Of a stretch of 64,000 nucleotides of DNA, positions 5,399 to 33,953 are shown in pieces. The position numbers and the translations under genes were made by a program. This DNA is from Amphiscolops sp. MND2022 (lineage: Eukaryota). How positions within the stretch are numbered: the first letter of the stretch is position 1; each line of letters starts with the position of its first letter. Below the pieces are notes generated by a model. It saw only the letters and a program-made list of their open reading frames with translations. It did no database searches and was not told the DNA's origin. The stretch lies in the NCBI GenBank assembly GCA_964187785.1, contig OZ076409.1, positions 54,810,001 to 54,874,000 on the forward strand, written 5' to 3'.

Positions 5399-6567
5399 CT
5401 CTCCAACCAAATACCTGGCGAACCCACAAACGACACACCAGTCTACATCCAGATACCCTCAACCACCCGCAACGCAGTTCGACGATATCGTCAGCGAAAT
5501 ACACCACCTGAGGGACACAATGACAGATACAGTGCAACATCCCAAAATCTTGCACACACAGGTCCCGCTCTTCAGAGGAAACCGGGAAAAGTATAATTAG
5601 TTTGAACACTTACTGCTCAACCACCTCAGACCTCATCAACACAAACTATCTGAGGAACAGAAGCTCACATATTTTCAAAGCCTGTTGCGAGACGACGCAA
5701 TTGAATTCTGGCAATCATTGAAAATGACAAACCAGACCACACTCGCCCAAGTCCTCCGCTACTTCAAGAAGGAGTACGCAAAAGAAGATCTGAAAGAAGT
5801 AGCGAAATACAAATTCGACCAGATGCGCTACGATCCCACAGCAGAAACATTCAACGACTTCCTAAACAAATTCAAGAAAGTAGCAAAACAAGCATTTGGA
5901 GAAAAATCAAGTGATATAACGGAAACATTTCTGTTTGCTAAACTTCCCGTCCAAATGCAGAACGAATTAGCCATGGCTGGGAAACACGATGCGTCCATGG
6001 AGGAAATAAGGACATTCGTCCAAAGACGATGCCAATATGCTCAGCTCATACCAACTACGACACCACAGGCATTCAACCAAATCAGTGCGCCACCGCCCAA
6101 TGCAGCAGCACCTCAGTCATCTAACTCCCAACCACCCCAAAACCGGGAGACAAAACGAAACTTTGACGGACAATGCCGCCACTGTGGAATCACCGGCCAC
6201 AAATGGGCCGAATGCCGTAAGCGCCTCCGTGAGGAAGCACAAAACAAAGCAACCAACCACAACCAACAACAACCAGCCCAACCCACCAACACCCAGGACG
6301 TCAAGCCCAAATACAACCCCAAATTGGTGTGCCAAATATGTGACAAAGTGGGACACTCCGCCCGAGACTGCTACTACAGAAATACAACGACTTCAGCCTA
6401 CAGAAGTATCCCGTATTCCAAGCAGTAGACAGAGGAAAACAAGCAGTTCTGCCGAGATTTCAGACAAACCAAATCAGGGTCTACAACGCGAACGAACTGC
6501 CCCACGCCACCAACGATGAAACTGACAATGTCGAAGAAACGGAGAGGCACGATGACGTAGAAGACCC

Positions 6568-6574
6568 AAAAAAC
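6568..6574 (+). other. -1 ribosomal frameshift heptamer A AAA AAC (gag-pol, element A)
   Basis: CCA AAA AAC TTC TAG at the gag end. The -1 frame is open from here into the pol ORF at 6772. Confidence 0.75.
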
Positions 6575-13063: not shown

Positions 13064-16000
13064 TTAGGATTCATCAGAAGATTCGATCCTCATAGTACGT
13101 TTTCCCCGACGACTAGTTTTCACTAAACCGTCATCTGACAACTGATCTTCTTGATCGGCCGACCCACTAGCAACTAATGACAATACTAGCTTTTTGCCGC
13201 CTTGAGGTTTCCCTCCAGTTCGACGTCCTGTAGACGACGGCGTTTTCCTCCCACTACTCCTGCGAATGGCACCACGAGTCTTTGACGGTATGGCAGATTT
13301 AGAAGTAGTAGACGCAACCACATTAGTATCCTCTTTCGGCGTTTTCAATTTCACGTCAGATTGACTGCGAGGCCTTTTAGATTTACTTCCTGATCCTGAC
13401 GGCAGTGCAGTAAGTTTGGGAGAAGCACGGATAGGGCTAGCTGCCATGATCTCCATCACATTCAGCTGTCCGAGAATAGACGACCTGTAATCATCCACGA
13501 TAGGCACTACAGGTGCCTCGGGTCCTTTATCCAATAAGGCTACGCAAAATGATAAGCTCTGATCCAGCCCGACTTTCAGTAATTGGTCCCAGGGCTTGGC
13601 CCGAACACTATCGGACAGACGAGAGACTTGCATGTTCGTCGTCTCGGCAATACGCATTAGGCCACGCAAATCACAGCGTGATTTTCCAACGAAGGAATGT
13701 CCGAACCAACTACGAACTAAATGTAAGCTTGAAGCAAGTTCGTCAGGGTCCAAAGCGGTAGCGACGTCGTCAACAAACTCAGCCTGATAACTACTGACAA
13801 CAACCACACTGAGCACTAAGTCTACTATTTGGCGCAATTGAGCACACCGACTCCAATGAGGATAAAAAAGCCACATAGCAATCACATCGTCCACAGAAGG
13901 AAGCTCGTCCACACAAAACGACCACCGCTTCTTAAAGAATTGCGTGACTTCTCTGTACTGCTGCTGTACTACACCGCCGTCGTCCAGATCGACTAGTCCG
14001 TGGGCAGTCAAGACAGCACAGGTCTCCACTAATGAGTCCACACGACGATCATCCGAACCCTGGTGTATAAGCACTGGATCAAACGGTGTCAAACTCAGAT
14101 GCTTCGGCCAGGTCCGTTGCCATAATCCACTTAGCCCACGACACAAACCCACCAGCATCTTCTGTACTGCCTTGTAAAAGAAGGATAGTTGGGAACTGAT
14201 GTCGTAGCGGAAAAATTGCCCGAAATGTTTCCTGTACAGATGGGCATCGACATCCACACAATCAGAGTCAATAACTTGAATCAATGCTGTAATCTCGTAC
14301 TCTGCAGGAATACTGGTAACTGGGTAAATGAACCTCATTAATCCGCGCAATAAGTGAGCTAGTTCCCTCTACACAACAACGCCGTAGTCTCGACCACGTC
14401 CACACAGTCGAGGACAATGCTTCACCACTGCAAACAAAGTAAAGTACAATAGTAGCTTTAGCATCGCAAATGAGTCCTCACTACTACGACGGAAAAGATA
14501 ACACACACAAAAAAAACATCTTTTCTCCTCCCTTTATACAACTAATTGTCTCATACTCACTTAAATCCAAAACGAGCCGCAAGATAGCAAACCGAGGACG
14601 AATCATCGCGTCTTCCAACACTTGGACTTCCAGTGGAGTAATCGGCTGTAGTTCTGAGGTGACGTTTGGACGATGAGTCCCGAAATACAACGATAAATCA
14701 TTCCAGTACTCCAAAATTTCTGCACAGACGGATGCTAACTGAGTGATGTCCTCTCCACCGACACGTACACACTAGAACAACAGAAACAAAATTGCGTTTC
14801 ATAACCAACCTCCAAAGAGCTGTCCAAATACATAAAACCTTATACTACACTTAGCAACTCCAAAAAACAAAAAAAAACGAAGCTAAAGTCACAAATAGCG
14901 ACTTCAGCAAACTACTTGCATTACTTTATAACATATTCACCTGTCGTAACAACGGCAATCGATCCAAAAACGTCGCCTGGACTACAGGTAGCATTCTCAC
15001 ACGGAAGTATTCTAAGACACTGAGCGGGTCCAATCCTGAAAATTCCACCCGGAATTGCCTCTGCACCTCATTGAAAATTGACTTTGCTGTTAGCAGTCCA
15101 ACCACGAGAGGCGTCTTGGGAGCTACCATGCCCGCCACTGCTCTCCCAACGTGAGTCTCTCCCTCGACCGCCATTGTTTTTAGCAATGTTCTGTCCTTCA
15201 GACATGCAAGCAAGGGTACCACGTTGCCCAGCATCCTCTTCTCCCATCCAGTTCCATCAGCCACCAGAGCGAGTACCACCGATTTCACACCATGATTGCC
15301 GATGATGTGAAGCTCGCCACGCCACTGCTAGCCACTCCGACGGATGCTGACGCCAATACATGAACTCGCCTCCACAAGGGTATCCAACTGCTCCACAACA
15401 TACGGATAACACCCGTACAGTATCAGACTCTAAATAACAAATAACGTCCCGAACACAACGACATTAAAACTACAAAGCAACCCCAACAATCACATTATAC
15501 ATGATTTAACAACGCGGTACGACCCTCTACATGTCAAAGAAATATTATCTCAAATAACCTGACAACGCGCGTAGTCCAGCGTCCGGCACTCGAAATGTAG
15601 TTCATTCGCCATGCAACTTCGCCAGGCATCCATTGAATGGAGCACCCCCTCGATGGACCTCGCAACCAGGAAGCTAGATATAAAATTATTCAGCCACAGA
15701 TAACCCACACCATCGTCCGGCAAATGTGGTCGCGCCCCTTCTGTTGCCTCAGCTTCTTCAATAGCCATGCGTTCTTCGACTGTCAGGTTCAGGTCCGTTT
15801 CCATAAAAACTGGCGGTTCGGTAGAACGAGCAAGTCTGATCCGGCGGTCCTCATCTGCAGATACAGGCCTGCAGGACTTGTCTAGGAGCGGCCTGTGAGT
15901 CATTATCCTATATTTCTGCTCCAAACGGGTGTGCTCCACCCCCTTCCAATGATCCCACAGAGATGAGATCCCGCGCACCGCAATGCTCAGGTCCGCCCGG

Positions 16001-17447
16001 CATAGCGGATAACGAGCGTAACCATCAATCACTCTCTTGTTGCGAGGAAAACCAACGAAGGTCCCCACAACACTCGACACAAAATAAGAAGGTTTCAGCG
16101 TCTTGATCTTCTTAGCACGCGCTGGAACAAACAAGTGAAACTCAAAAAAAAACTTTTAAATCTTAGTATAGAGATGCCCTTGTAATCACTAAAATCTTTC
16201 CCCCTAAAACCCCCCTCATGATCTTATGAGATACTTACCAGGTGTAACACCAGCCGACTTCGCAACACTGGCCGGCCCGACCACAGCACTCTCGCCGAAC
16301 AATGATGGCGCGACTGACTGCTGCAAACTAGCAACTGAGTGAGTCACAGGGACAGCAGATCCAACCGACACTATCTCAGCAGGCAATGTAGGAGTCACAG
16401 GCACATCGTCTCCAGGGATGGCAACACGCAAACCACTGACAGGTTTCAATTGAGATACAGCCGAGACCAATCGCTGAACGAAATCGTCCACAGCTACCGC
16501 TCCCACAGTGCCTAACCGACCCAGGGTGGATTCAACTGTTGCCTTGACAACACCAGCCAACTCCTTTTCCAACCGAGTAATTGCAGCCACCACAGTGTCG
16601 ACACTCAAAGCGGAATCACTCGCGACACCTGGAATAAATTACAAAGGATAAACAATGCTGTCACCATACATACGTCACCCCTAACAATAACCTCTCCAAC
16701 ATTACCCTTATGTCAGTGCAAATCAAGGGACGACTGTCATACGGTACTACCAGTAGAAGATTGAAATGATGCCTATCTTACGCCATAACATACAGAAGAT
16801 ACCAGGTTGTTCACTTACCACTCTGAGTGAAGCAGTAATCCCTGAGCCCGGATTCGCACGCACCCACACTCGGTTCATCACCTGACGACGCTCTAGACTG
16901 TAGCATCCGCCGCAACCTGGCAACAATATCGGTCATATTCAAGGATTCTACAACACACATGGGGAAAAATCGGCCAGACAGTTAATCGGCTTAAAACAAA
17001 CGTTCCAACAATTTACCCAAGGTAATAGGTCCAGGGAAGAGCCTACAGAGTGCCGCTCAATAATCATATCCTGCATTAACGATGCTATGCACACACACAC
17101 ATTACCTTGATGAGTTCCGAAGTTAAACACAAATGACAAATGCCTGCCCTTATCAACAGACCATCAATACAAAGAAAACAATACGAAAACGTTTTGGAGT
17201 ACTCACGGAATTCACTAGAGAGAGCTATTTCGAGTAATGTAGTAGCGGTTTCCACATTGGCTTCATCTACTCGACCGGCATACTGACAACATACCGACTG
17301 AGTCGCACCCTCTAGTAATTCGTCCACTGATGCAACGAGACCTTCCTCGTCCGACAAATGGTCCAAACTAGACAGCTCAGCTAACGCTCCTTCTGCCGCT
17401 TCTACTAATGATGCAACCTCTCCTTCCGATAATTCTCCAGCGGCCAT
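13064..17447 (-). pseudogene. Antisense spliced zinc-finger / hAT-like cargo gene of element A (decayed)
   Basis: Predicted exons 17447-17207, (uncertain ~16916-16819), 16628-16239, 16121-15559, 15429-14941, 14771-14561, 14427-13064, with GT..AG introns. Premature TAG at 15328-15330 and 14369-14371. Alignable by eye to the element B cargo protein. Confidence 0.75.
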
Positions 17448-18354
17448 TTTTAACAAATAATCAAGAACAATCAATAACGAATGTCAAAGCATACAAACAA
17501 TCTCTGGAAAAAATTTGCGATCTACCAGGTTTCAGCAGCTATCGTTATACAGAATGAGGATTGATCACCCTTATCACCTGGAAATGATAGCCTACAACCC
17601 ACGTCAAAGAGAAATTTGATGAAAAATTTACTCGAAATACAACCATTTTGACCACCCTACCAATCAAAGAACCACAAGGTTCGAATTTCACAAATCGCTA
17701 AGTTTCTCCGGAGAAAGGAAAACTTTATGCACAAAACTTCCTGATGTAATCCCCATCCTGAACGATTCAAAAATGACCATTTTGATTGGCTCACTTCCAT
17801 CTGGTATACCGCTCAACAACTTACAGCAATTCCAACTAACAACAGTTCTATCGTGACAAATGGTTTAATTCATTCACTCAGTTTTGGCAGCTACGGAAAT
17901 TTGTTTACATAACGCGCGATATTCCACTGCATCTTACTTCCGAACAGTTACCGAATGAGCCGAGTTATTACAATTGCGCTGCCACGCTATTGTTTTCCGG
18001 CGACGACATTCTTACTCTTACTCTCTTCCTGCAAACAACGCGCACGATTTGGATGACGTGGCTACTCTCGCCACATTGACTCTATATTTACTCTTGACCG
18101 AAGTGAAATACTCGACGCGCAGCTAACAATTCCTCCCCCATCCGAGATGAAGTATTAAAACCATCCGATTATTTTCAACCATGACGTCAATACACTACCG
18201 ATGATGCAGTTGTCATGACAACGTCGCTGCTACTTCCGATTAATAACCAACAAGAAATCAACTTTGCTAATTGACACACAAAACTCAGCTCCCCCCACTC
18301 AGCTGTAAATACAAACCATCCCGACCACAAGCTCTTTTCAAAAAAGACCCGGAG

Positions 18355-19510
18355 TGTCATGCCTGACGCATGAATATCCCGAATGATCTTGATTACACTA
18401 CATCCAGGGAAAGAATACCATTAGACGAAAACACGTTTGTAAACTGAAAGAGAATGTAGTTGAGGAAACAACATCCGGCAAAATAAACTTAAACAACTAC
18501 ATGCATCCACCACATTTTATCCCGAGCAAACTCCAACCATTTAATAACTATAACCAGCCCCTTTTCACATATACTTGTAAAATCATATTCATAACATTTA
18601 GTCGATGATATTGTTAATGTACCGTCATTTGATTTTATTTTACCAATTCCATAACATTTAGTCAATGATGTAGTCAAAATACCATCACTAAGTTTACTTC
18701 ATCCACTTCGGTATTCACAAGTATAATCAGTACCATCACCTAACCAGTTAACTATATGTGTAGCGTCATTAACATTACAGTGCATTACTAAATACATATA
18801 TAGAGTAAACATATTATTACAGTGCTATGATGTGCATATGTTACCATCATTATATTAACGATCATACCAAATTTGAGTCATGTAACCATAGCAACATAAT
18901 TACACACCATTTCTACTTTTCAACAAATTTAGACGCCAATTGCGCAATTACATACCAAGGTGCGAACGAATATCGTAACATGATTGGTCGATGTGGTCAC
19001 GTGACCAGCATCGCCATATTTGACACAAAGTGAATTGGCGCTGCCATTGGAACATAGTTATACCTTGACGTGCAGTTACTAACGACATACCAGAAATTCG
19101 CAATAATTCAACTTCATACTTTTGCTAAAACAAACCTTCTTCAGAACAATAAAATCTTAAAACTCAATTACTATTAAAAATGGTTGATACTCGATCCCCA
19201 GCTAGAAGCTCTATCCCAGAATTTATGAGTGGAGTAAGCAGAAATGACCAACTCAGCGACACTGAAAGTGAGTGTAGCGTACCAGACCTCCTATCGAGAG
19301 ATCAAATCGACGAACTAGACAGAGGGAATGTCATCCGTACTGAACAACCTTCCGAACAAATGACAATTGATCAACGATTCTCGAATATGAACAAGCAAAT
19401 CAGTGAACTTACTGGATTAGTTTTGGCCTTAACCGATAAGCTATCCTCCAATATTGGAGAAGGGAACAATCAAAACACAGCGTCTGACAAGACCTGTGCA
19501 CGTTCCGACA
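18355..19510 (+). repeat. 3' LTR of element A
   Basis: Direct repeat of 4230-5385 (offset 14125). Preceded by an imperfect purine tract AAAAAAGACCCGGAG. Confidence 0.95.
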
Positions 19511-21259: not shown

Positions 21260-23770
21260 TGTTACGACATATTGTCGGGTCGTTTTGAGTAGAACTTATT
21301 CTTACTGATTTTGTTGGAGTATAGAAACTTCTAGTTTCTTCCTCTACCTCTTCTTCGGTATTTTCTCTAATGATCCCTCTTGTTTCAGGTTTCAAGAGTT
21401 TTAACATCTCCTTCTGGGATTCGATAAGAAGATTCTTAATTTCCGAAGTTATTTCCTCTTTCAAAGAGGCTCTCAAACTTTCTAAGAGACTATTCTCAAT
21501 CCGGGGGGATTTTGGATTGGAAGGTCCCGCTACCTCATCGTCCTGGTTCAAAGGACAAGAATTTCCTACCACTATAGGTGAAATCAGGCCTTCACTTACG
21601 TTCTCACTGGTGCTTTGCTGATCATTTCTTCTTTTTTGGCTTCTCGTTGTAGACATTTTGTAGAAAAGTTTGGATTTGAAGAATTGAATTTCTTTCAAAT
21701 ATTTTCTGACAAAAGTAGAATAAGGTGAGAGTGAAATTGAGAATTCGACTGAATTATACAATTACTAAGGACTGAGTCCCTCAATCATCAAATCCTATCA
21801 TATTTATACCCTCTTAGCATCATTTGATCACGATCATAATCCCTAATTTCCTTCGAACAATTAGTCATTTCCTGTTTTATCGATGAAAAAATCACGAAGT
21901 TCCCAAATTTGCGCTGACATTCCGTCAAATTTTAAGACACGGCAAACCTAATCTAGCATTAGTCATCAACCGTAATCATATTATTTCAGCTCGGCGTCCT
22001 TTTATTTCCTCCCAAGCAGGAAGTAGATATTACTTCAGTCTGTCAAACCGGAAATGATTCCCTGTTTTACTGCTTTGGTTCGCGGGAAATTGACGCTGAG
22101 ATGACGCCGGCATGAACAACTAATGCCTGAATTTTGATATTTTGCTCGAGAAAAATGCTATGACTAATGTTTTCAGCCCTATAATTTCCAATGATGCTAA
22201 AGAGGAAGGAGAAACAAGCTCAAAGAATTAGCAACAATCTCAAATTAGTTTCAAATTAAATGATTAACGATTAACAAAATAAAGCAACGACACATTGGCG
22301 TTTGGTGGATTGATGGACTAGGTTGTCTGAATCAGACTTTTGTCCAAATTTATTAATACTTCACTTACAAATAGCGTCTAATATCATTTTAGCGCTTATT
22401 TGGTAAATATGCATAATACTCTGTCAACAGATTTTAACTTGTACATGAAATAGTAATCTTGAACAAAACATCTGACGGTATGAGGACGGCACTTCATGGA
22501 ACCTCTGAACAGGCAAGAGTCCAAAACCTTCTAACACCAGATTCCATTCATTACAGAACGCACAAATGTAATACAAACATTTACTCTTGATTCATCCACG
22601 TTAGGGTTAGAATAATGCACATTCTGATTAGGGGGTGACGACGTACCGACGTCCAATTAAACAACAAGGTTGTAGCACACACTTTATGCAGTACAAAAGT
22701 ACAAATGTATGAAAATATATTTCCAATATGAAAATATCATCGAATTACTTTCGTCATGCCCATAAACTGTGACTTTCACCTACATTATACTGGGACTTCC
22801 ATTTCAACTTAAATTTTGGAGTAAAATTTATCCGACAAAGGAAATATTTGACGAAAACGTGGCATGGGACTCCAAATTCCCTTTTAATTATTTTGTTGGA
22901 ACACCAAGTACTTTAAACGTATTCCTAGCCCTAATTCAATTTGATTGATATTCATCATAACTTCTGGGTGGATTAAAACAACTCGTCTTGATGGAATTTG
23001 GACGTACCGTGGACGTACGTATTAGTATTAGGCCTGGTCCAACATAGTGGACGTAACGCGGACGTAAATTTGACGTAGAATTAGTCCTCGCCGAGAAGGC
23101 AATGCCGTGACGTCACTATGGCGGAAAATTGGAATGATTTCAAGTAGTGTATCTAATATAGGCGGTAAATTGGAATGGTTCTCTAGTGAGCGTGGACGAA
23201 ACGGTGACGTCACGCTGTATACTTTCAAGTCTGCTTCTTACCGACATCTAATATACATGTATCCTTTATTTTGTTTACTTAACGCAGTACCGACGTCCTA
23301 ATCCGCACTAATTGCTGTTCAAAGTGCAATTAAGCTGCCTTTCTTAGAAAAGGAGTGGATATCTCAGTGTGTCATCTCAATGTAGTTTCTATTTTAGATT
23401 CAGATAATGTCCTTTTTTCAACGGTGGTTTTGGGTATATTTCTATTTAGATCGGTCTATGGTCTTTATTTCATTGCGAGTTTTAATTTAGTTTTCAGGTG
23501 GCGAATGTTTCTATTTTGGCGTACTAAGGACGTCCTACCGGATGTGCGTGAAATCATCTTATTTCAATTTTAATTTCATTTCTCATTTTTGTTTAAACTT
23601 TTCGTGAGTTGGGCGTTCGTTTTCGTATTCTTAGTCACAGTTTATTCTAAGGATAAGGTTTTAAAGTTACCAGTTGAAGTAAGATCTGGGGAATCTCAGA
23701 TTGCCTCCGTGACCTCTCCCGATCTTCAGTCGTCTGCAACCACAAGCCAGACCGGGAGCGGGCTGTGACA
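21260..23770 (-). repeat. 3' LTR of element B (2511 bp)
   Basis: Direct repeat of 34987-37497 (offset 13727). Minus-strand termini TGTCACA...GTAACA. Confidence 0.95.
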
Positions 23771-24365
23771 GGGCCGCTCCTGTAGGAAGATTGACTTTGC
23801 CCGGGGCTCTGAGTTGCGAGGCAATTGTCAGAGTAGTGGTGACTGGCTGTACTCTCTTCTCCAAATCGTTCAAAGGACTTGGCTGCAAGAAGTTTATCAT
23901 CCTTGGCGTTCCCGGCGGGGTGTTGAAGTAAGAAGAGGCGTCTTCCTGGTGCACTTTTTCGAGATATTCTGCTACTTTACTGCTCGTTGTCGATTCTTTA
24001 TCGTCTGCCGAGGGTTCAACAACAAATATATCAGATGACAAACTTTCGTCAGGGCTCTCTGGAGAGTCGGCCATTACTTCTTCTTCGGGACTTTCCGATT
24101 GTGGGTATTGACCTGATTCCACAGTTTCAAAGCTCGTGCTGAGTTTCATCCTTTTGCATTCAGCTTCCAGAGAGTCCAGAGAGAGGTCGAGGAATTCTTC
24201 CTCATCTGCAGTAGCTTCCGCAGACGAATTCATTATTTCAACAATTATTCTAGGGTATTCTTTGTTGACTCTAGGTAGTGGTGTAGAAGCCCTCGTGATC
24301 TCACCCTCTTCTTCACTTGACGACGAGATGTCGATCAATTCGTAAATATCCAGTAGATTATTCAT
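23667..24365 (-). CDS. 232-aa acidic, Ser/Glu-rich accessory protein in the env position, overlapping the 3' LTR by 104 nt
   Basis: Open ATG..TAA ORF with no signal peptide or TM segment. SIM-like motifs ELIDISSSSEEE and EEFLDLS. C-terminal ALSQPAPGLACGCR is echoed by ALSQSAPGLDCGCR in element C (ORF 55311-55514). Confidence 0.6.
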   Translation of the reverse strand: MNNLLDIYELIDISSSSEEEGEITRASTPLPRVNKEYPRIIVEIMNSSAEATADEEEFLDLSLDSLEAECKRMKLSTSFETVESGQYPQSESPEEEVMADSPESPDESLSSDIFVVEPSADDKESTTSSKVAEYLEKVHQEDASSYFNTPPGTPRMINFLQPSPLNDLEKRVQPVTTTLTIASQLRAPGKVNLPTGAALSQPAPGLACGCRRLKIGRGHGGNLRFPRSYFNW

Positions 24366-24518
24366 TTTCTTTGCGAGGTTTCTTTCTTTTGCAGCTGTCG
24401 CTTGTATTTAATTGTTCCACAATGAATTTGGGATTAATTAGGATTAAGGAGAATATTGGGATAAATCCCTCCATTCTGATTGGTTAAACAATCGTTTTAA
24501 TCCTTTTTAATCTTCAGG

Positions 24519-24824
24519 TGTTGACGCTGTGCCGGCGTCGTTTTTTATTGGCTGCGAATTGAATTAATCCGCTTGGCCAAGTTTGTCAACGTTATGCTGA
24601 CGTCAATTTCGTTAGCTTAGCTAACTTTTGTTTTGTCACCGTTATGATGACGTCATTGTAGATTATAGGATTAATTTTCCAACCCTCATAACCTTTTTGT
24701 CGACGTTATGCCGACGTCATTTTCGTCGATATTTCAATCGATCTATAGTGCCGACGTTATGCCGGCGTCAGTTTCGTTGGTGAATAGCCAACTTTTAGGT
24801 TTTGTCACCGTTATGATGACGTCA
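24519..24824. promoter_or_regulatory. Array of six 22-bp repeats (approx. TGTCRMCGTTATGMYGACGTCA) in a putative bidirectional promoter
   Basis: Copies start at 24519, 24584, 24634, 24698, 24749, 24803; spacers 28-43 bp. Three copies end in a perfect TGACGTCA (CRE). ATTGG (CCAAT) boxes near 24479 and 24547. Lies between two divergent ORFs. Confidence 0.7.
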
Positions 24825-24856
24825 TTTTTGGGCTTATTTTCAGATTGTCCTTTGTG

Positions 24857-27800
24857 ATGACTTCTCCCCATCGAGTGGATCCTGGTGTGCAGAGTGGCAA
24901 CGAGACGCAGTATGTGTTCTCAGAGGGGGACGTGTATCCGAGCGATGCTGATAATGTTGGTTTGGCAGGTGAGTTTGTCATTCCTTGGTCCATTAAGCTG
25001 TTGCGGATAATACTTTGCATAGATAGGCCTTTTCCATGCCCGTATTTCCACCGCTTAGATTTTCTGACGCGTCAAGACAACAGGAATGTGTGTTTTTAGT
25101 TCCTGCTACGACTGTTGTCGTCCCTTCGCCGGTTGTCCCACCTGAGGAACATGCTGTTGCGAGTGCTACTGTCCCTGCGAGTCCTGTGCCACCCGTTGAA
25201 GTTCCTGCGGTTGCCTTTGTTGTTTCTGAACCTCCTGCTCCTACTCCTGGAGTTACTGATGTCATCGTTCCTTTGATTGAGGTTGCCGATGTAACTGTTG
25301 GTGCTGCTGCCTCCTTGACTTGTGCCCCAACTCCTTCCCAACAAGACGACTCAGATGTGCCACTTTCGTCTTTTCTTACGAAGTCAAAGAATACTGGGTT
25401 GTCTTCTCCTCGCGTAGGTGAGGACGTCTGCCCCCCGGCGAAGAAGAAAGGAGAATTGGTTGAGAAGACTGTTGCGGAAGAGGGAGCTGTCAAGAGTGCC
25501 ATAGCTTCTCCCAATTTCTCTCGGTATCTGCCTGATTTTGCTGCTACTTTCGGTAGAATAGAATCGCCTTCGCCAGCAGCCCAAGGTGAGTTGTCTTTAG
25601 TTTGTTTTCTCTTTATATGATTGGGGGTTTGTGAAATTGGGTACGATGTCATTGGTTTGCTTTATTATTGTATGTGGGATTCGTCTGTTATTATAGTTGC
25701 ACCTCCTACTCCAATTGTGTCATCTGGGAAACGACGTCGTACCGTCACTTTGGCGACTGTTGCGCAGTCACAGACCTTCCAGATCGAGAGTAGCGGGGGT
25801 GAAGAATCGCAGGCAGGGATCGCTGCCTATACTTCCCAGCAAGCTGCTTTGTTTGGTGAGGCAGTCGCTTCAGAATTGGAGACTCGGACTGTGGAGCCCT
25901 TCGTAACTAGTGAGTGAGATTTTCCTTTTGCTCTCTTTCTTCTTCCTCTCTTTTTTTTTTTTTTTTTTTTGAATTAGCTGTGTCATAGCATACGGTCGGG
26001 AAGTTTTGGGTGGTTTACCTGGTAGTGGTGAGTTGTTGAAGTTGATTGTTGTTGTTTTTGTTGTAGAGTTTGAAGAGTTAGTGACACGAGTAGAGGCAAG
26101 TCTCGAGAATGTGAGTCCGGCACGACGACGACCACCACGTCCCCAAAATGTGCGGAATCGTTTGCGTCGCAGTATGGTCAAAGATCACCCGATTTTTGAA
26201 TTGTTTGTGACTGGATCGAGTTCCGGGGTTGAGACCGCTTTCTTCTGTACCCTCTGTCAACGGGACGTCTCAATCGCGACCAAGGGCGTCCGTGAGATTA
26301 GTCGGCATTTTTCGAGTGACAAGCATTGGTTGTTGGATGCTACTTACCGTGTCCATCAAGGCTTGCAAGTTTATAACAAACTGCTTGATCCCATGGAGCT
26401 AAGTGACGCGCAGACGAAGGAGTATCTGTCTCGGCCATTTAAGGAGAAGCCTGAAGGTTTCAGCTTTCCGGAGGATCTCTTGCCTGCGTGCACCCGGGCT
26501 GATTCGAGTGTTCCCATCATGACGATGATCAACTGTCTTGTGGAGCTGCTTCGTAGTGGAGGTGACTATCTGTTGTTGAGGAAGTTGTGGGGCCATTTTC
26601 GCGCTACCCTTGGTACAGAGAACCCACTATACAATATGACTTGGAGTCGAGGAGAGTCTTTGGTGAGTTTCTGGCTAACGTTTCTGTGACGACTGTTGTT
26701 TTTCTGGTTTTCTTTCTTCCCCCATTTTCTTTGAATTCGTGGTATCTGTACTTAATCGTTCCTATTGTGTTTGGTAGTCGTTGCTGTGTCAGGGTCTGTT
26801 CCCTCGTGTTCTTCGTGCCCTGATTGCTCGGATTGGTGATTTCAAGAGCTACAGTGTCATCTTCACGGATCTGGGCAGTGAAAAACAGTGTCTTGTACGG
26901 ACGTGGGAGAAGCATGTGATGCTGGAAGTGTGCATCGATGTACAGTCGGCGGGTCAGCGTGTTCCCCTCGCTGAGTTGAATTCCTTGTCTTGCATCCTGG
27001 GGAGCGTTCCTGGCGGACAACTGCCGATATCTGTGGAGGGTGTGAGTCCTTCGCTGCTGCGAGTGTTGAGCGACGTCCGCGAGGATGGTTGCCAGTTCAT
27101 CCTCAGTCGCAATTTCACCGACGAAACCTTCCTCAGTTGTTATCGCCAGGCCCATCAGGAAGTGTTGGGCATGATGGAAGTCACCGCCATGGTCGACTAT
27201 CTGATGCTGCGTTTGAGGGGTGCTTTGCGAGAACCGTGGCTGGAAGATACTGTCGTGCTCCGTCGTTGTGTTGTCGCTGGCCAAGTGTCTTTCCATGATC
27301 TCCGAGAAGTTGCCTCTGAACTGATTCCTGTGTGGAACTCTGTGAGGGAGTTCGTCCGTTACACTGGGCCCCGTCACATTAAAAGCGAAACTGACATGGT
27401 TAGTAGTCCTGGTTTAATGGGTCTGCTTACTTGTTTGTGTGGTAATTTTCCTCTGTTTTCCTTTTTCGGTTTTCCCTTTTTTGAGCAATTGGGGTTTTAT
27501 TGGCGCGAGAGTACACTGCTGTTGTTATGTTTTAGATGAGAGGCACTGACAGTCAGATTTATTGTGATAATACAAATCGGCTGCGACTGGGGCTCCTTGT
27601 ACATATGCTTGATCTTTGTAAGTGGACGTCGTTTCATCGTCGTACTTTGAGGTTGATGGTTAGTACATGGGTTTGTTGTTTAGATCGATGTACGTTCAAG
27701 AAGCAGCTATCTGGTCGTGAAGACTATGGTTTCCACTGTTACATGGAAATCTGCCAGTTTATATACTGTTTGCTGTCTCGTACTCGCCTGCTTTCTGGGT

Positions 27801-28882
27801 TGCCTGATCTTCACGACTGGGAGGCTTACATGGATGTATCAAAAGTCGAGACATTCAAGAAGGTAGACACCGCTGATTTCCTGCTAAACCACAGTTTCGG
27901 AGAAGAATTGCAACGAGGCAAGACCGGTGAGATGCAGGAGTTCCGTAATCGTTGCCGGGAATTTATGGACCGTCTGGTGGACGTACTGCTGGGGTCTAAC
28001 CTTGTTGCGTCAGATTTCCTGCAGGGTGTTTATGCTTTCTGTCCCGAACTCCTGCTTGAAGGCGATGATCGTTACATCTTCCGCCTATTCAGTAAGTTGG
28101 TGCGAGTCTTGGAACGGAGCGGAGCTCTGAGCAGTGAGGAGGCTAAATCCGGCTCTGAAGAATTTGTGACTTTTGTTGTGGACGCGCGACGCCGGCATAC
28201 TGATGCTGAGAGGAGTGCTGAAGATATTGTGGATGTTGTGAGTTTTCTTCTAAATGATTACAGTTTCTTGGCACGGAAGGATTTGTGCCGTATCCTGAAG
28301 TTGTGTTGCCTGGTCATGCGTCGTCCTGCCCCCGGTGGCCCTGAAGTGAGAGTCTCCCTAGATGGTTGTGTCGTGCCCGCAGGAGTTGTTGCTTCCTGTC
28401 TGCGTGGAGTACAGAGTTATGTTCGAGGTCCTGATTTTAAACTGGGGTCCTTCTTTACCCAGCACACCATGGACTGTGTTCGTGATGCTCTTTCTGGTGC
28501 CCGAGATTTTATGACTGCTTCTTCAGATTTTGACCCCTGGAGGCGTATCTGTCTACTTGATCGCGATGAGTTTGTTCGTCATTACAGCGAGTTGTTCGAG
28601 GCGCACATAAAGCGCAAGAAGGATGAGTCTTACCAACGATTCCGGACTGCTAATCAGCGTGTGCGTAGGAGTGCCACTGATGTCAACGTGTTTGCTGCGT
28701 CGTCTGGTGGTCGTTCCGGACGGGGGAGCTCGTCTGTTGCTGGAAGTGCTGCACTTAAAACACCGACTAAACGACCTGCTGTCCCGGCATCAAAAGAGTC
28801 CAAGAAGAATGAGTCGTCCGTCAAGAATAAGAAAAAATCCAAGAAACAGTCAGGCGACGCTTCTAGTTCGAAGAAGTGTTGA
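24857..28882 (+). CDS. Antisense 7-exon gene of element B, ~1102-aa zinc-finger / hAT-transposase-like protein
   Basis: Exons 24857-24968, 25100-25585, 25697-25909, 26067-26662, 26778-27398, 27536-27617, 27684-28882. All introns GT..AG (donors GTGAGT, GTTAGT, GTAAGT), phases compatible, 3309 nt open. Zn finger FCTLCQRDVSIATKGVREISRHFSSDKH; Lys/Ser-rich tail. Confidence 0.8.
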
Positions 28883-29018
28883 ATTTGTTGAATTGAACTT
28901 TGTTTGATTGTTTGTGTGTTTTTATTGATTTTGTATAAGTATTCAGTTGTAGTATTATTATGGAGTCATAGTAAAAGAAAAAGTTTGAAAGACTGTAGTA
29001 AGTCTAGAATTGAAATTG

Positions 29019-32000
29019 TCAGATCGGTTCGGTCTGGACTCCCGATGATACTTTTTGGTCTTCCATCATCGTAGTTATAGCGTCAAGTCGTCTGAAGTCA
29101 GGCTTAGCTTTAGGTTTAGGGTTGGGTCGCAAGTTGTACTTTGCTATTTTCCTCGGATTATACCCGACAGTTGTAGGCGGAGATATCGGGGGAATAGGCG
29201 GGCTTTCTGTGGGAGGGGGGCGACGTATGTATGGGTTATCCCCCACATCTGTTGTAAGGTTTGAAAAATCCGGAGACGGCGGCGCTGCGACGTCTGTATT
29301 TGCCATTTCTTGTATTTCTACGTTATGGTTGTTTCTTGTGTTTTCCGGCGATTCGTGTTCATCAATCTGCTTTCCAAAATCCATTTCCCATGATACCGCA
29401 TACCATTCATTGTGTGAGACTTTAACTTCTGGGTCAGGAAGGTAATCATTGGCTCGTACTGTGACGTCGGGCAAGCGTTGTTCCGTCACATAAGGTCGTA
29501 TGCGAATTCTGTGTAGTGTTTGTGTATATCTTGTGCCAAGTTTTCGTATTGTGTAGTTGTTGTTCGAAAGCACTTTGATCACTACATACGGTCCTGTCCA
29601 GATGCAATCTTGAAACGCAAACTTTGTCGATTGATTGTCGGCTTTCGGGTTAAGTATGTAGCAGTAGTCATTGATTTTTAAGGGAGCTGCAGTCGCTTTG
29701 CGGTCGTAGTATTTTTTGTATTTGAGATAGGACAGCATGATGTTGTCTTTCGCCGTCGCCCTCACTTCGTCTATTTGTTTTTGGAGTTGTTCTGCTATAT
29801 CCGAGTGGGGGGTGGTCTTCCACTTTGGCTTGATGCCTAATTTTAAATCGAGAACGTTGTAAGGTATACGTCCATGAAATACTGTAGATGGTTCGCAGCC
29901 CAGAGTTTCATGGTATGTTGTATTGTAATTCATTACTGCGATTTGGACATATTTGTGCCACATTGAGCGTCGTTCACCCGTTGATATTTTTAGGGCAGTT
30001 TTGATTGAAGCGTGCGTTCTTTCCAGAATTCCGATTGTTTGTGCATGCTTCGTAGATGCGTGGCTGATTTGAATTTCGAGTATTTGGGCTATTTCTGTGA
30101 CGACTTCTGATCGAAATTGTGAGCCCTTGTCTGATAGGATTAGTGTTGGCAAGTATGCATGTCTTGTCATAACGTCGACAATGCATCGTCCGATTGTTTT
30201 CGCTGTGACATTCTGCGTTGGATATGCAAATAGATAACGCGAAAAGACATCAATCATCGTGACAATGTTTTGGTATCCCGCAGAGTTTGGTAAATTCGGC
30301 AATATGTCTATTTCTAGGATATCTTCTGGTCCTAAGACATGTTCCGTATTGTTGATCATTTTTGGTCGGATTTGGCTGTTGTTGATTCGTTTGTATTTGA
30401 TGCATTCTTCACATTGCATTACCCACTGTCTAATCTTCTTTGCTAATCCTGGGTAGTAGTATTTTGATCGGCATTCTTGTATCATTTTTGTGATTCCTGG
30501 ATGCTTCCCCATTTGTCCATGAATTGCTTTCAAGAGTTCTGTGATTAAATGTTCGGGGATTAGAATTTGATGGTGAGTGACTTGACCACATTCCCCGTAA
30601 TATTTGCGCATTAGTACTCCATCTTTTACTATTAGTCTGTTTTCGTGGATTAGGAGGCGCTTGGCAGTCGGATCAGTCTGCAGAAGGTGTTTGTCGTATT
30701 CTTCACATATCAACTTCTTTTTGATTGCTTTGAAAACCAAATTCGAGTCTTGCTCGACTCTAATACGTGCATCTTCCTTTATTGCCCCAAAGGTATAAGA
30801 TGCCTTGTTTATTGGGATTGGTGTGGTTTCTTTGATGGCTATTTTGATTTTTGTCGTCTCCTCGTCGCGTGCATTTTGTCTAGCTTGTTCTTTCTGCAGT
30901 AGAATTTCTTCTTCCGTTTCAATTGTTTCATCTGGGAGGAAGAAAAGTTGTTCCTCGTCTGCGACGTCCGTTGATTGGAGATTCACTTGAATGGGCTTGA
31001 TAGTAATATCCTCTCTGATTTTTAGTTCAACTCTTTCTTTGGGATTGAGATCTATTCTTGACAAAAAATCGGCTGCCGTGTTTTGCGTACCCGCGACGTG
31101 CATTATGTGGAAGTTGAATTGTAGTACGTAATCACATGCATTCCACAGAGTGGGCGGGATTGCTTTTGTTTGGAAGAAGCGGGTTACCGATCTGTTGTCG
31201 GTCATCACGAGGGTTGGTAGGGTTGTTTCCCATAGAATATGGCTGTATTCAAGGAAGGCGTGATAGATCGCTAGGAATTCCTTGCAGTAAATTGACATTT
31301 TGATTTGAGCCGGGGAGAACACCTTTGATCCGAATGCGACTGGTGCAAATGTCTTCTTTTTCGAATTGAGTTTTTTGTCGTTGTCTTCCTCAATCATTAG
31401 GGCGTAGCCAGAGGCTCGGAAGCTGGCGTCCGTCATTAGGACGTACTGTCGTCCCGTGATTGGCTGTTTGAGTGCTAAGCCGCAAGCTTGTGCCAATGCT
31501 GCGTTAATAGCTTTGTAATGGTCAAGTAGTTCTTCTGTGACCTTGATTTGTTTGTCTGCTTTCAGTAGTTCATAGAACCCGAGCAATTTCTCAGACAATC
31601 TCGGGATGTAGTTGCGATAATAATTGACGAAACCGATGTATCTTTGTACTTGTTTCTTGGATTTTGGAAATCTCACGTTTGCTAGGAATTTTTGAATTTT
31701 ATGGTCTTGCGGGGCGATTCCTTGTGGTGTGATCGTTCTTCCAAGAAATTCGACCTCGGTTACTCCGAAATGGCATTTTTCGATGGTTAATTTGAGTCCT
31801 GCCCTTCTGATGCATTCAAAAACTGCTCGAATGTTGCGTATCAGTTGCGCCACGGAATTGGCCGCTATCCCGATATCGTCCACGTACTGTGCGCATTGAT
31901 CAGCTTTGATTACTTTATCCAAGTATTCTCGCATGAAGCTTGAAAATGCCGACAGGGCTCTGCTCAATCCTTGTGCCAGACGTTTGTATGCGAACGTTCT

Positions 32001-33947
32001 GCTTGCAAAGTTGAAGGCTAGCATTTCGATTGATCTTTGGTCTGCCATCTGTAGGCAATGATATGCCTGTGAGCAGTCTAGTTTGCAAAACAATTTTTTC
32101 CCAGCTAGATGTTGGGCTGCATCTGACAGGGTGCTGACTGGGTGGTTATTGTTGATGTAATCGTCTGAGATTAATGCGTTTATTTTCCGCAGGTCGACAA
32201 GTAGACGCAGTTTGCCATTTGGTTTCCTCTGTGCGAAAATTGGGCTTGCATACTTTGAAAATGGTAGGGTCGTTATTATGCCGTACCTGTGCATTAGCGC
32301 CAATTCGACTGTTAGGTCTTCTTTCAAATTGATTGGTACCGGCAAGCTTTGCGTGTAAATAGGACGGTCGTCTTTCGGAGTTAATTTGACTTTGAAGCTA
32401 TTGTTGATTCCGATGTCAAGGCGATGGCGGGCAAAGATGTCATTGTATTCGACTATTGTTTGCTCAAGTTGTTGTCTGTCATTACCTTCGATTTGGGATC
32501 CTTCCCACTGGAACATGTCAAGGAATTTTTGTCTTGATTCTGGGTCTTTGGTTGGATCCAAGTTTTCCTTTTGGATGAGTTCACGGATTTCCTTCAAGAT
32601 CCGACGTTGGATTGGCGTATGTTCTTCTTCGTTCCCTGGGTTCTCGGGTGTGGGGAACCAGAGGTTTTCATCGTTTTGTTCGTGTTCATTTGATTTCATA
32701 AGTTCGTTAATGTACATGTGTGTGTCATCGGGGTCTTCTAACAATTTGAGTGCGGCGGCGTCAACTGGTCGGATTTGTTTCGTGTCCTCAGGTTTGAGGA
32801 TTTGTAGTTCTGCCAGTTTTGTGTGGTTCTTTATTGTATGTGGGAAATCCGTTAGATTGGCGATTCTGATGTTGAGCCTTTTGTTATGGGCTGTCGCCAG
32901 AGCTGGTGCAACAATGATTGTTGCTGTTTCATCGAATTGTGGTAGTGGTTGTACCGCACCAGTGACGTCATGCATGTTTGTGGTTATTACTATTGCGTTC
33001 ACTGTTGTTGTTTGTTGGGGCGGTAGTGTTTGGTTTCCTTCTGCCATTATTTGGAGCGGTTTCGGGTTGCATTTTTTCATCTCGTCCGTCATGGCTAGCG
33101 TCATTTCGACGTGCGGGAAATTGATGGTTCCGTTGGCAGTGTCGATTACTGCTTGGTGATTTCTCATGAAGTTCAGTCCTATGATGGGGAATGACGTTTT
33201 CGATAGGATGACGAAGGTATCCGTGAAGGTATATGTTCCGATATTGAACTGGATGTCTGCTGTTGCTATTGGTTGTTCTAGTTGTGCGTTTGCGCATTCA
33301 ATCTTGAAGGGAGGTTGAGGGTATTCTTTTATGACACAACTATCACTGTTCATTTTGATTGCGTTGTAGTCTGACCAGGACATGGCATTGATGAACGCAC
33401 CTGAGTCGACAAGTCCGTCCATTGTTATTTCGCCGAATTCTAGTGGTAAGTACAGCATTCTCCTTCTGCTCTTGAGGACTATAGTGGAGTGGAGGGGTAT
33501 ATATGCTTCTCCATCCTTTTCGGCTACGTATTCCTTGATTGTGTTAAGTGACATTGGAAAATTGTCTGGGGGTAGAAGTGTTTTGGTGGAGTCGTGGTTA
33601 ACTCCTTCGTTTTGTTGTGACGCTGGGCGGTCGTCGGAGGCGCTTTCATTTTGTTCTACCTGGTTTGTAGCAGAGAATTCTCTATTGATGGGGGGTAAGC
33701 TGGTGGGACGATTTGCTTGTTGTTTAGGATTGTCCCTGTAGTCTTTGTCGTGAGTGTAGGTTTCTGCTGGTTCAGTTTGTGGATAGGGTCTTTTTATAGA
33801 AGCAAGTGCTTGTCGTCTTAGCCGATCTACCGTTGGTGTGTCGTTACACCCTTCTGTTGAGTCGTTTGTATAGGTGATGGGGGGATCTGTTGATGAGTAC
33901 GCCCTCGCGGCTACGGTTTCCCCGAATCGCAGGCGCGGCGTATCTAG
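29019..33947 (-). CDS. pol: Pol polyprotein of element B (PR-RT-RNase H-IN), reached by -1 frameshift from gag
   Basis: LVDSGA protease, YVDD RT, TDAS RNase H, H-x5-H..CxxC Zn motif, D..D..E integrase core, WTGPY, YNLRP tail. The frame stays open 131 codons upstream of the listed Met (33554), up to the slippery site. Confidence 0.97.
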   Translation of the reverse strand, partial: LDTPRLRFGETVAARAYSSTDPPITYTNDSTEGCNDTPTVDRLRRQALASIKRPYPQTEPAETYTHDKDYRDNPKQQANRPTSLPPINREFSATNQVEQNESASDDRPASQQNEGVNHDSTKTLLPPDNFPMSLNTIKEYVAEKDGEAYIPLHSTIVLKSRRRMLYLPLEFGEITMDGLVDSGAFINAMSWSDYNAIKMNSDSCVIKEYPQPPFKIECANAQLEQPIATADIQFNIGTYTFTDTFVILSKTSFPIIGLNFMRNHQAVIDTANGTINFPHVEMTLAMTDEMKKCNPKPLQIMAEGNQTLPPQQTTTVNAIVITTNMHDVTGAVQPLPQFDETATIIVAPALATAHNKRLNIRIANLTDFPHTIKNHTKLAELQILKPEDTKQIRPVDAAALKLLEDPDDTHMYINELMKSNEHEQNDENLWFPTPENPGNEEEHTPIQRRILKEIRELIQKENLDPTKDPESRQKFLDMFQWEGSQIEGNDRQQLEQTIVEYNDIFARHRLDIGINNSFKVKLTPKDDRPIYTQSLPVPINLKEDLTVELALMHRYGIITTLPFSKYASPIFAQRKPNGKLRLLVDLRKINALISDDYINNNHPVSTLSDAAQHLAGKKLFCKLDCSQAYHCLQMADQRSIEMLAFNFASRTFAYKRLAQGLSRALSAFSSFMREYLDKVIKADQCAQYVDDIGIAANSVAQLIRNIRAVFECIRRAGLKLTIEKCHFGVTEVEFLGRTITPQGIAPQDHKIQKFLANVRFPKSKKQVQRYIGFVNYYRNYIPRLSEKLLGFYELLKADKQIKVTEELLDHYKAINAALAQACGLALKQPITGRQYVLMTDASFRASGYALMIEEDNDKKLNSKKKTFAPVAFGSKVFSPAQIKMSIYCKEFLAIYHAFLEYSHILWETTLPTLVMTDNRSVTRFFQTKAIPPTLWNACDYVLQFNFHIMHVAGTQNTAADFLSRIDLNPKERVELKIREDITIKPIQVNLQSTDVADEEQLFFLPDETIETEEEILLQKEQARQNARDEETTKIKIAIKETTPIPINKASYTFGAIKEDARIRVEQDSNLVFKAIKKKLICEEYDKHLLQTDPTAKRLLIHENRLIVKDGVLMRKYYGECGQVTHHQILIPEHLITELLKAIHGQMGKHPGITKMIQECRSKYYYPGLAKKIRQWVMQCEECIKYKRINNSQIRPKMINNTEHVLGPEDILEIDILPNLPNSAGYQNIVTMIDVFSRYLFAYPTQNVTAKTIGRCIVDVMTRHAYLPTLILSDKGSQFRSEVVTEIAQILEIQISHASTKHAQTIGILERTHASIKTALKISTGERRSMWHKYVQIAVMNYNTTYHETLGCEPSTVFHGRIPYNVLDLKLGIKPKWKTTPHSDIAEQLQKQIDEVRATAKDNIMLSYLKYKKYYDRKATAAPLKINDYCYILNPKADNQSTKFAFQDCIWTGPYVVIKVLSNNNYTIRKLGTRYTQTLHRIRIRPYVTEQRLPDVTVRANDYLPDPEVKVSHNEWYAVSWEMDFGKQIDEHESPENTRNNHNVEIQEMANTDVAAPPSPDFSNLTTDVGDNPYIRRPPPTESPPIPPISPPTTVGYNPRKIAKYNLRPNPKPKAKPDFRRLDAITTMMEDQKVSSGVQTEPI

Positions 33948-33953
33948 TTTTTT
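33898..33953 (-). other. -1 frameshift signal: A AAA AAC (33953-33947) plus downstream stem-loop
   Basis: TCA AAA AAC TAG ends gag. It is followed by a TACGCC..CTGCG..CGTAG..GGCGTA hairpin. The -1 frame is the pol frame. Confidence 0.8.

What the first reader, a model, noticed from the sequence alone, without database searches (positions are those of the whole stretch)
24519..24824. 22-bp repeat array between the two accessory genes, retained by non-autonomous element C
Seen: six 22-bp repeats separated by 28-43-bp spacers, some self-complementary (GTTAGC-tta-GCTAAC). C has lost nearly all of gag, pol and the cargo gene but keeps six copies at 55584-55901. Known: hAT BED-type fingers bind short subterminal repeats, Arabidopsis VANDAL VANC anti-silencing proteins bind tandem motifs in their own elements, and TGACGTCA is the CREB/ATF site. 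Inference: a cis site (bidirectional promoter/enhancer or binding platform for the cargo finger) needed for mobilisation, giving a trans-factor plus cis-array system.
Basis: partly seen in the sequence, partly recalled or inferred. Interest (0 to 1): 0.72.

Follow-up and report, generated by a model that had tools for sequence, protein, structure and literature searches.

The report
Family-specific DNA code in a retrotransposon
The repeat array is the densest cluster of a short spaced DNA motif that runs through this whole retrotransposon family, even through its genes, while a neighbouring family carries a different motif, which suggests that each family marks its own DNA for a protein it carries; the array also appears to fold into a chain of RNA hairpins.

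Summary
The array is real: six 22-bp units in Ty3/gypsy element B and six in the deleted, recently inserted relative C (five shared, one private each). Each unit carries two CpGs exactly 11 bp apart (CG-N9-CG). An unbiased scan shows this spacing enriched outside the array across B (92 sites against 26.6 expected) and C (21 against 4.9), also at synonymous positions of pol (37 against 14.8), but not in element A or flanking DNA. A has its own element-wide dyad, ATG-N15-CAT (29 against 5.6), with no excess in B or C. A and B carry homologous, diverged antisense zinc-finger genes. Best reading: a family-specific binding code for the element's own protein, working like plant VANC/TnpA systems, with the array as its strongest cluster. 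Second layer: on the genomic-RNA strand the array folds into about eleven hairpins with compensatory changes. Not shown: binding, promoter activity, mobilisation. Against: two arrays only, A lacks an array, the hAT identity of the cargo is a lead only, no RNA data. CREB sites alone do not explain the pattern.

The parts
24519..24824 (.). Array of B: six 22-bp units, 8 CG-N9-CG sites (23.6 per kb against 6.9 per kb in the rest of B)
24519..24824 (-). Same array read as genomic RNA: six unit hairpins alternating with five spacer hairpins, A-rich linkers
   Evidence: (z -5.6)
55584..55901 (.). Array of C: six units, 7 CG-N9-CG sites; hairpin chain on the minus strand (z -6.8)
21260..37497 (-). 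Element B, Ty3/gypsy LTR retrotransposon, identical 2511-bp LTRs, 5-bp target duplication; carries CG-N9-CG in excess in LTR, cargo and gag-pol
21260..23770 (-). 3' LTR of B: 20 CpG pairs at 11 bp against 3.1 at other distances; these sites do not form the array's hairpin
29019..33956 (-). pol of B (protease-RT-RNase H-integrase), open; 37 CG-N9-CG sites against 14.8 +- 3.4 in synonymous-codon shuffles
33944..35488 (-). gag of B (starts inside the LTR); 10 sites against 3.4 +- 1.7
24857..28882 (+). Antisense accessory (cargo) gene of B: six exons in frame with consensus splice sites, 1120 codons with the stop; C2H2-type finger in exon 4; start codon about 30 bp from the array
   Evidence: finger similar to A's finger, E 7e-6; hAT/ZBED5-like only as an Atlas lead
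23667..24407 (-). Second accessory ORF (246 aa stop to stop, acidic, low complexity; first Met at 24365), runs into the 3' LTR; no family found, mostly deleted in C
24495..24519 (+). Pyrimidine tract plus CAG/G, conserved in C, at the array's edge; a second acceptor-like site at 24837-24843. Suggests the array lies inside the cargo transcript
   Evidence: alignments; splice role is inference
53382..58278 (-). Element C, non-autonomous, LTRs 99.25% identical, target duplication, intact primer-binding site; CG-N9-CG 21 against 4.9 outside its array
4228..19510 (+). Element A, distant family with homologous antisense cargo; own dyad ATG-N15-CAT (refined ATGNNG-N9-CNNCAT), no CG-N9-CG excess, no array

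Best explanation
The array is the high-affinity hub of a self-recognition code. Shown: B and C carry a dyad-symmetric spaced motif (CG-N9-CG, flanks like GWCGWC) along their whole length, written even into synonymous codon positions; A carries a different dyad with the same 9-bp inner gap; the array units are top-scoring copies; the array also keeps RNA base pairing on the genomic strand. The hairpin chain is a second use of the same bases on the genomic RNA (export, packaging or dimer signal). My odds by step: code is real and selected 0.9; read by the cargo protein 0.55-0.6; effect is activation or anti-silencing rather than something else 0.6; hairpins under selection 0.6.
For: Unbiased scan of 3808 spaced dinucleotide pairs per region: CG..CG at 11 is the top hit in B without array (92 against 26.6, Bonferroni 1.6e-19), in B pol alone (37 against 11.8) and in C without array (21 against 4.9); no dinucleotide pair passes correction in A. 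By region: B LTR 20 against 3.1, cargo 25 against 10.0, gag-pol 45 against 13.5; A gag-pol 16 against 14.6, flanks 28 against 28.8. Synonymous shuffles: pol 0 of 1000, gag 0 of 1000 reach the observed count. A: ATG..CAT at 18 is the top of 56160 trinucleotide tests (29 against 5.6, Bonferroni 1.7e-7), in excess in 4 of 5 parts of A and in none of B LTR, B internal, C or flanks; refined form 12 against 0.8, 0 in B, C, flanks. Non-array sites show little or no arm complementarity beyond their matrix, so the code is sequence, not hairpin. Cargo intact in B, homologous to A's, 476 relatives at E <= 0.001. RNA layer. Precedent: PMC5735166, bioRxiv 10.64898/2026.08.24.746577.
Against: No binding, expression or methylation data. 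One copy each of three elements. A has no array and no dyad site between cargo and LTR. CpGs with an 11-bp partner are not better kept from B to C in alignable non-array blocks (5 of 11 against 9 of 19). No excess in the second ORF and its gap (2 against 1.0) nor in the finger exon (2 against 2.6). A common half-site GWNG for A and B is not supported in B (23 against 17.4, p 0.1). A's motif has no CpG, so protection from CpG methylation cannot be the general mechanism; the window shows no CpG depletion (observed/expected 0.98). Cargo has no Pfam match. Poisson values treat sites as independent, and local tandem copies in the LTR inflate them. VANC motifs are reported as non-coding (PMC5735166), unlike this code.
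Confidence: 0.5

Rival explanations
1. RNA element first: the array is a structured signal on the genomic RNA (export, packaging or dimerisation, like RTE of mouse IAP elements near the 3' LTR); its DNA motif content is only the family background.
For: Minus strand z -5.6 and -6.8 with well-defined structures against -2.6 and -2.9 on plus. 7 of 8 minus-strand windows at z <= -3.5 among 433 lie in the arrays. Unit helix 90.3% paired, 4 of 6 pairs with two-sided changes, 0 of 500 shuffles; the wobble pair is paired in 11 of 12 units on minus and 0 of 12 on plus. B's four internal unit types differ only at three pairs of partner columns; chance 34 of 1500000 with the DNA core frozen, 533 of 400000 if one step is discounted. 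Spacer stems change less than loops between B and C (6 of 73 against 17 of 78, p 0.017). IAP deletion elements keep RTE-D (PMC2674570).
Against: Does not explain the element-wide code, nor why all 15 array sites are above-median motif copies. One compensatory step also creates a second CG-N9-CG site, and the three end units pair in the register that a DNA dyad gives for free. Strand-neutral wobble count is 15 of 21 as copies but only 8 of 14 as events by my hand count (p 0.064). 4 of 10 spacers fold better on plus; with C as reference the plus strand also shows stem conservation (p 0.004). A has no such chain.
Confidence: 0.15
2. The code is read by an element protein but for another purpose: coating the cDNA or pre-integration complex, self-repression that limits copy number, or binding by integrase or Gag rather than the cargo.
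For: The even spread through coding regions suits coating of the whole DNA better than a promoter; pol also differs between A and B (RT region about 67% DNA identity), so family specificity does not single out the cargo.
Against: The cargo is the only element product with a finger outside the integrase and Gag knuckles and its nearest Atlas clusters are hAT-type DNA-binding proteins (lead); the best cluster of sites lies at the cargo's own start. Integrases recognise element ends (established knowledge).
Confidence: 0.17
3. Host factors: the array is a bidirectional promoter or enhancer of CREB/ATF sites with CCAAT boxes between two divergent genes.
For: All 17 TGACGTCA sites of the window lie in the three elements (chance 1.09); TGACG is intact in 9 of 9 internal units; CCAAT boxes at about 24477 and 24546; divergent start codons on both sides.
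Against: The full site is broken in half of B's units; a host factor does not explain one fixed spacing in B and C and another motif in A; splice-like signals conserved at both edges suggest the array is inside the cargo transcript (inference).
Confidence: 0.11
4. No function: slippage-made repeats and palindrome-correcting template switches in reverse transcription gave array and pairing; a mutational bias gave the 11-bp spacing.
For: Units are gained and lost; a 54-bp tandem lies next to C's array; B's LTR holds short 11-bp tandem runs; tandem arrays of unknown function are common in this slot (PMC11963269).
Against: The array is as conserved between B and C as the RT scrap (77.7% against 73.2%); palindrome correction would remove the constant wobble; no mutational process known to me gives one exact spacing in one family and another dyad in its neighbour, at synonymous sites.
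Confidence: 0.07

Closest known systems
VANDAL/VANC anti-silencing system of Arabidopsis Mutator-like elements (PMC5735166, PMC10398659; passages read)
   Same: Accessory gene in the element; short family-specific motif at high density, partly in tandem repeats that gain and lose units; sister families have different motifs.
   Different: Here an LTR retrotransposon; motif is a spaced dyad, spread through coding sequence at synonymous sites, where VANC motifs are reported in non-coding regions; protein not shown to be related; binding and demethylation not shown; array has an RNA-structure signal.
Spm TnpA and transposase-derived sequence-specific activators (bioRxiv 10.64898/2026.08.24.746577; abstract and passages read, supplements not visible)
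   Same: A transposase-derived, non-catalytic protein with family-specific motif clusters is what the cargo may be.
   Different: DNA transposons, motifs at termini; the main text has 0 occurrences of 'retrotransposon' or 'LTR'. Transposase origin of this cargo is a lead only.
Hermes (hAT) BED domain and subterminal repeats (PMC10368747; passages read)
   Same: Zinc-finger pairs bind quasi-palindromic short repeats with strict phasing.
   Different: There the sites are near transposon ends and serve cut-and-paste assembly; here they are internal and element-wide; no sequence or fold match to Hermes was obtained.
Retand/Tat and Grande plant Ty3/gypsy elements (PMC11963269; passages and Discussion read)
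   Same: Long pol-to-3'LTR region with antisense ORF for a putative DNA-binding protein and family-specific tandem arrays of unknown function; non-autonomous members.
   Different: TRP28 domain not found here; no element-wide code or RNA structure is reported there (0 occurrences of 'secondary structure').
RTE-D of mouse IAP elements (PMC2674570; passages read)
   Same: Structured RNA element near the 3' LTR, kept in internally deleted elements.
   Different: No Rfam match here; repeated short hairpins; export role untested.

Membership tests
Ty3/gypsy LTR retrotransposon (element B) | LTRs, target duplication, gag, pol in the order protease-RT-RNase H-integrase | tested here: met
VANC/TnpA-type trans factor plus cis motif system | Family-specific short motif enriched in the element and different in sister families | tested here: met
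   three elements only
VANC/TnpA-type trans factor plus cis motif system | Motifs clustered in tandem repeats with unit gain and loss | tested here: met
   for B and C; not in A
VANC/TnpA-type trans factor plus cis motif system | Motifs mainly in non-coding regions | tested here: not met
   excess also in gag and pol at synonymous positions
VANC/TnpA-type trans factor plus cis motif system | Element-encoded protein binds the motif and lifts silencing | not testable with these tools
   needs binding and expression assays
VANC/TnpA-type trans factor plus cis motif system | Host element is a DNA transposon (Mutator or Spm) | tested here: not met
   LTR retrotransposon; works like, is not a member
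hAT transposase-derived (BED/ZBED5-type) protein | BED-type finger, RNase H-like core, C-terminal dimerisation domain | tested here: inconclusive
   Atlas 0.86 to ZBED5/FAM200-like clusters, under the 0.9 mark; no Pfam match; folds gave no match
CREB/ATF-driven bidirectional promoter | TGACGTCA in each unit | tested here: not met
   3 sites in B's six units, 4 in C's; half-site kept in internal units
CREB/ATF-driven bidirectional promoter | Divergent transcription starts flanking the array | not testable with these tools
   no RNA reads available
Known structured RNA families (Rfam 15) | Score at the family's gathering threshold | tested here: not met
   0 matches in the window; best E 2.4 in B and 0.3 in C, far below gathering
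Conserved RNA secondary structure | Compensatory changes and strand-specific wobble pairs | tested here: met
   few independent events, two arrays
Non-autonomous LTR element (C) | Young LTR pair, target duplication, primer site, coding regions lost | tested here: met

The most novel reading that the evidence does not exclude
A clade of LTR retrotransposons has captured a transposase-like DNA-binding gene and each family has rewritten its entire sequence, codons included, with an orthogonal dyad code that only its own protein reads: a self-recognition system by which the element marks all of its DNA against host silencing, with non-autonomous parasites keeping the code, and with a hub that is read both as double-stranded DNA and as a folded genomic RNA.
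Probability: 0.35. Interest if true: 0.92.

Novelty: new variant of a known kind. Interest (0 to 1): 0.78.

Why it matters
The function of antisense accessory genes and of 3' tandem arrays in Ty3/gypsy elements is stated as unknown in a 2025 survey (PMC11963269). This window gives two concrete, orthogonal candidate target motifs for two homologous accessory proteins, so a simple cross-binding experiment can decide whether such genes are family-specific regulators. If so, VANC-like self-recognition would extend from plant DNA transposons to LTR retrotransposons, and a cheap spaced-word scan could predict target motifs for accessory genes in any genome.

Tried and rejected
No whole genome is held, so copy-number and phylogenetic tests were impossible. 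No sequencing run was listed: no evidence either way on expression. More arrays were not found: viral contigs 0; the one metagenome hit is an unrelated locus with no similarity to the window; 55 single hits in prokaryote genomes show no similarity beyond the motif (in these 27 of 55 pair at all three variable positions, 10 of them one sequence type, so the pattern itself favours pairing). Cluster membership could not be looked up. Word-based searches with two cargo exons among longer proteins found none; HMMER then found 476 relatives. Last cargo exon: model pLDDT 85, all helical, no fold match, no Pfam family in 69 members beyond single weak hits, no solved relative. Middle exon: model pLDDT 37.5, uninformative. 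Homodimer prediction: no answer, not evidence. Second ORF: no usable Atlas hit. Hammerhead ribozyme and C/D box considered by eye and rejected; Rfam empty. Terminator-like hits are a bacterial pattern and irrelevant here. A bistable two-register switch was considered: register 2 shows no covariation and is 3-7 kcal/mol weaker in 8 of 9 internal units. Shared A/B half-site rejected. A covariance model of the unit found no further strong copy; next best E 0.019 in B's LTR. Host not determined; a recalled guess gave no useful paper. Searches for a printed description found none of an element-wide dyad code in LTR elements; the library is partial and none of these searches used the motif itself.

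Full report
Setting. The window is repeat-rich eukaryotic DNA with three LTR elements. B (21260-37497, minus strand) has identical 2511-bp LTRs, a 5-bp target duplication and an open pol of Ty3/gypsy order; 26 unnamed relatives at 40-92% identity head a list of 47 hits, some clusters with hundreds of members. Between pol and the 3' LTR lie an antisense gene of six in-frame exons with consensus splice sites (24857-28882, 1120 codons), the array, and a 246-codon acidic ORF on the genomic strand. C (53382-58278) has LTRs with 12 mismatches in 1605 bp, a target duplication and a primer site, and 1687 bp of interior against 11216 in B; so many losses under so young an LTR pair suggest it moved in the deleted state (inference). 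A (4228-19510, plus strand) is a distant family with a homologous antisense gene (finger exon E 7e-6; last exon against a profile E 0.0019, probability 14%). The host is not determined.

Observation. Confirmed with corrections. The array is the best-conserved alignable piece of C's interior beside a 47-bp LTR-start scrap (77.7% over 345 bp; RT scrap 73.2%) and is flanked by deletions on both sides; with about 15% of the interior kept, one whole retention is suggestive, no more.

DNA layer. The invariant core of each unit is two CpGs 11 bp apart. A covariance model of the unit pointed to a look-alike in B's LTR, and the pattern YGACG-N7-RACG occurs 33 times in the window against 1.13 by chance, 15 in the arrays. 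Spacing is exact: GACG-N7-GACG occurs 20 times outside the arrays, no other gap from 0 to 30 more than 8 times. CpG pairs at 11 bp: B LTR 20 against 3.1, cargo 25 against 10.0, gag-pol 45 against 13.5, C LTR 9 against 1.5, C interior 12 against 2.3; second ORF 2 against 1.0; none of 5 parts of A and not the flanks (28 against 28.8). To guard against hindsight I scanned all 3808 spaced dinucleotide pairs per region: CG..CG at 11 is first in B without array (92 against 26.6, corrected 1.6e-19), in pol alone and in C. Synonymous-codon shuffles that keep the protein give 14.8 +- 3.4 for pol (observed 37, 0 of 1000) and 3.4 +- 1.7 for gag (10, 0 of 1000); cargo exons are weaker (36, 35 and 755 of 1000). 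The same scan at word length three found a different dyad in A, ATG-N15-CAT (29 against 5.6, corrected 1.7e-7), in excess in LTR, gag-pol, the pol-cargo gap and cargo, absent from the cargo-LTR gap, and at background in B, C and flanks; synonymous shuffles in A's five frames give 14, 35, 21, 111 and 77 of 1000. The refined form, chosen on these data, has an inner G-N9-C like B's motif and occurs 12 times in A, 0 elsewhere. The flanks hold some passing word pairs too, from their own repeats. Non-array sites are not hairpins: arm complementarity is at or slightly above arm-shuffled values (B 169 against 150.6 +- 10, 64 of 2000; C and A none). All 15 array sites score at the 74th to 100th percentile of a matrix from 113 non-array sites, and density is three times the element's mean; one 340-bp stretch of the LTR near 23000 is as dense. 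Against: partnered CpGs are not better kept from B to C (5 of 11 against 9 of 19), so single sites turn over.

RNA layer. On the minus strand, which is the genomic RNA, both arrays fold into a regular chain of hairpins with A-rich linkers (z -5.6, -6.8; plus strand -2.6, -2.9) and hold 7 of the 8 strongest minus-strand windows among 433 (15 shuffles each). In 12 units the six-pair helix is 90.3% paired with two-sided changes at 4 pairs (0 of 500 shuffles; the tool warns that kinship inflates this). One pair alternates G-U and U-G: paired in 11 of 12 on minus, 0 of 12 on plus. B's four internal unit types differ only at partner columns; a simulation with the DNA core frozen gives 34 of 1500000 for three such steps and 533 of 400000 for two, the fairer figure, since one step also makes a second CG-N9-CG site. 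All 10 spacers fold as one hairpin on minus, 8 with z <= -2.8; 4 lose it on plus, but 4 are more stable on plus. The short spacer stems show A-U, G-U and G-C at one position (read by eye). B-C changes avoid stems: 9 of 131 against 29 of 146 (B as reference, minus), 12 of 145 against 26 of 132 (C, minus); plus strand p 0.63 and 0.004; spacers alone p 0.017 and 0.020 on minus, 0.53 and 0.058 on plus. Of 7 changed pairs in B's structure 3 break. Wobble strand bias: 15 of 21 copies, 8 of 14 events by hand count (p 0.064). So the layer is probable, not proven. No Rfam family matches; A has no such chain at the matching place.

The reader of the code. A dyad with a fixed gap is the usual mark of a dimeric DNA-binding protein (established knowledge). 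Enrichment, not avoidance, means binding helps the element (inference). Different codes in neighbouring families point to an element product. The cargo finger region is nearest to ZBED5/FAM200-type clusters at 0.86, under the Atlas's 0.9 mark, with 10 of 10 best family hits in one clan: a lead. Pfam, solved-structure and fold searches did not confirm it. Thus the step from code to cargo is inferred.

Known systems. VANC proteins bind family-specific motifs in tandem repeats in non-coding parts of VANDAL elements (PMC5735166, PMC10398659; passages). TnpA is reported as a transposase-derived activator with family-specific motif clusters (bioRxiv 10.64898/2026.08.24.746577; abstract and passages; supplements closed and may bear on wider distribution). 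Hermes BED domains bind phased quasi-palindromes (PMC10368747; passages). Retand elements have antisense ORFs and arrays of unknown function (PMC11963269). IAP deletion elements keep RTE-D near the 3' LTR (PMC2674570; passages). Ty1 dimerises through palindromes, and Ty packaging signals are ill defined (PMC6844567, PMC4974528; passages). Egl-type localisation signals are long bulged stems (PMC13186709; passages), unlike the six-pair units. Searches listed no description of this arrangement. Earlier notes of this scan on fungal elements with antisense finger genes are parallels only and were not checked.

Verdict. It works like a VANC/TnpA trans-plus-cis system but is not a member. Mechanism inferred; interest 0.78.

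Noticed in passing
window 4228-19510: Element A carries its own element-wide dyad ATG-N15-CAT (29 sites), densest in the LTR and the pol-cargo gap; its gag and pol are broken into several frames.
   Followed up: yes
window 21260-21761 and 34987-35488: gag begins inside the LTR of B, so the primer site lies within the gag frame; the same layout is seen in A (5028-5600).
   Followed up: partly
window 21801-22168 and 53606-53959: The only well-aligned block of the B and C LTRs (76.8%) holds a TATA-like box and a conserved CG-N9-CG site; likely the core promoter.
   Followed up: partly
window 54987-55408: C has a second LTR-start sequence 422 bp upstream of its present 3' LTR, more like B's LTR start; the LTR seems to have been shortened by a duplicated start.
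   Followed up: partly
window 23771-23800 and 54987-55000: No clear polypurine tract before the 3' LTR; in B the boundary sits in a short inverted repeat.
   Followed up: no
window 55884-55988: Two 54-bp tandem copies beside C's array, with one more CG-N9-CG site; absent from B.
   Followed up: partly
window 12250-12420: Structured patch on A's genomic strand (z -4.5 in one window, -2.15 over 441 bases) with a cluster of TGACG words, between pol and cargo.
   Followed up: partly
window 44739-46931: Satellite of about 110-115 bp units with a 224-bp higher-order period.
   Followed up: no
window 1-3061, 47400-51200, 61400-62600: Elements with long terminal inverted repeats and related subterminal repeats, probably a DNA transposon family and its short derivatives; no CG-N9-CG excess in 1-3061.
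   Followed up: no
window 20962-21260, 37498-39186: Duplications around B: 699 bp repeated exactly and 299 bp shared with the other flank; rearrangement or assembly artefact.
   Followed up: no
L005, L013, L016, L022, L023, L039, L051, L054, L056 near 575-640: Several bacterial genome bins share a 40-50 bp repeat that happens to contain the unit pattern; unrelated to this finding.
   Followed up: no
L001 360-1034: Chance pattern hit inside a frame that looks like a cyclin-dependent kinase inhibitor (label recalled, not from a call).
   Followed up: no
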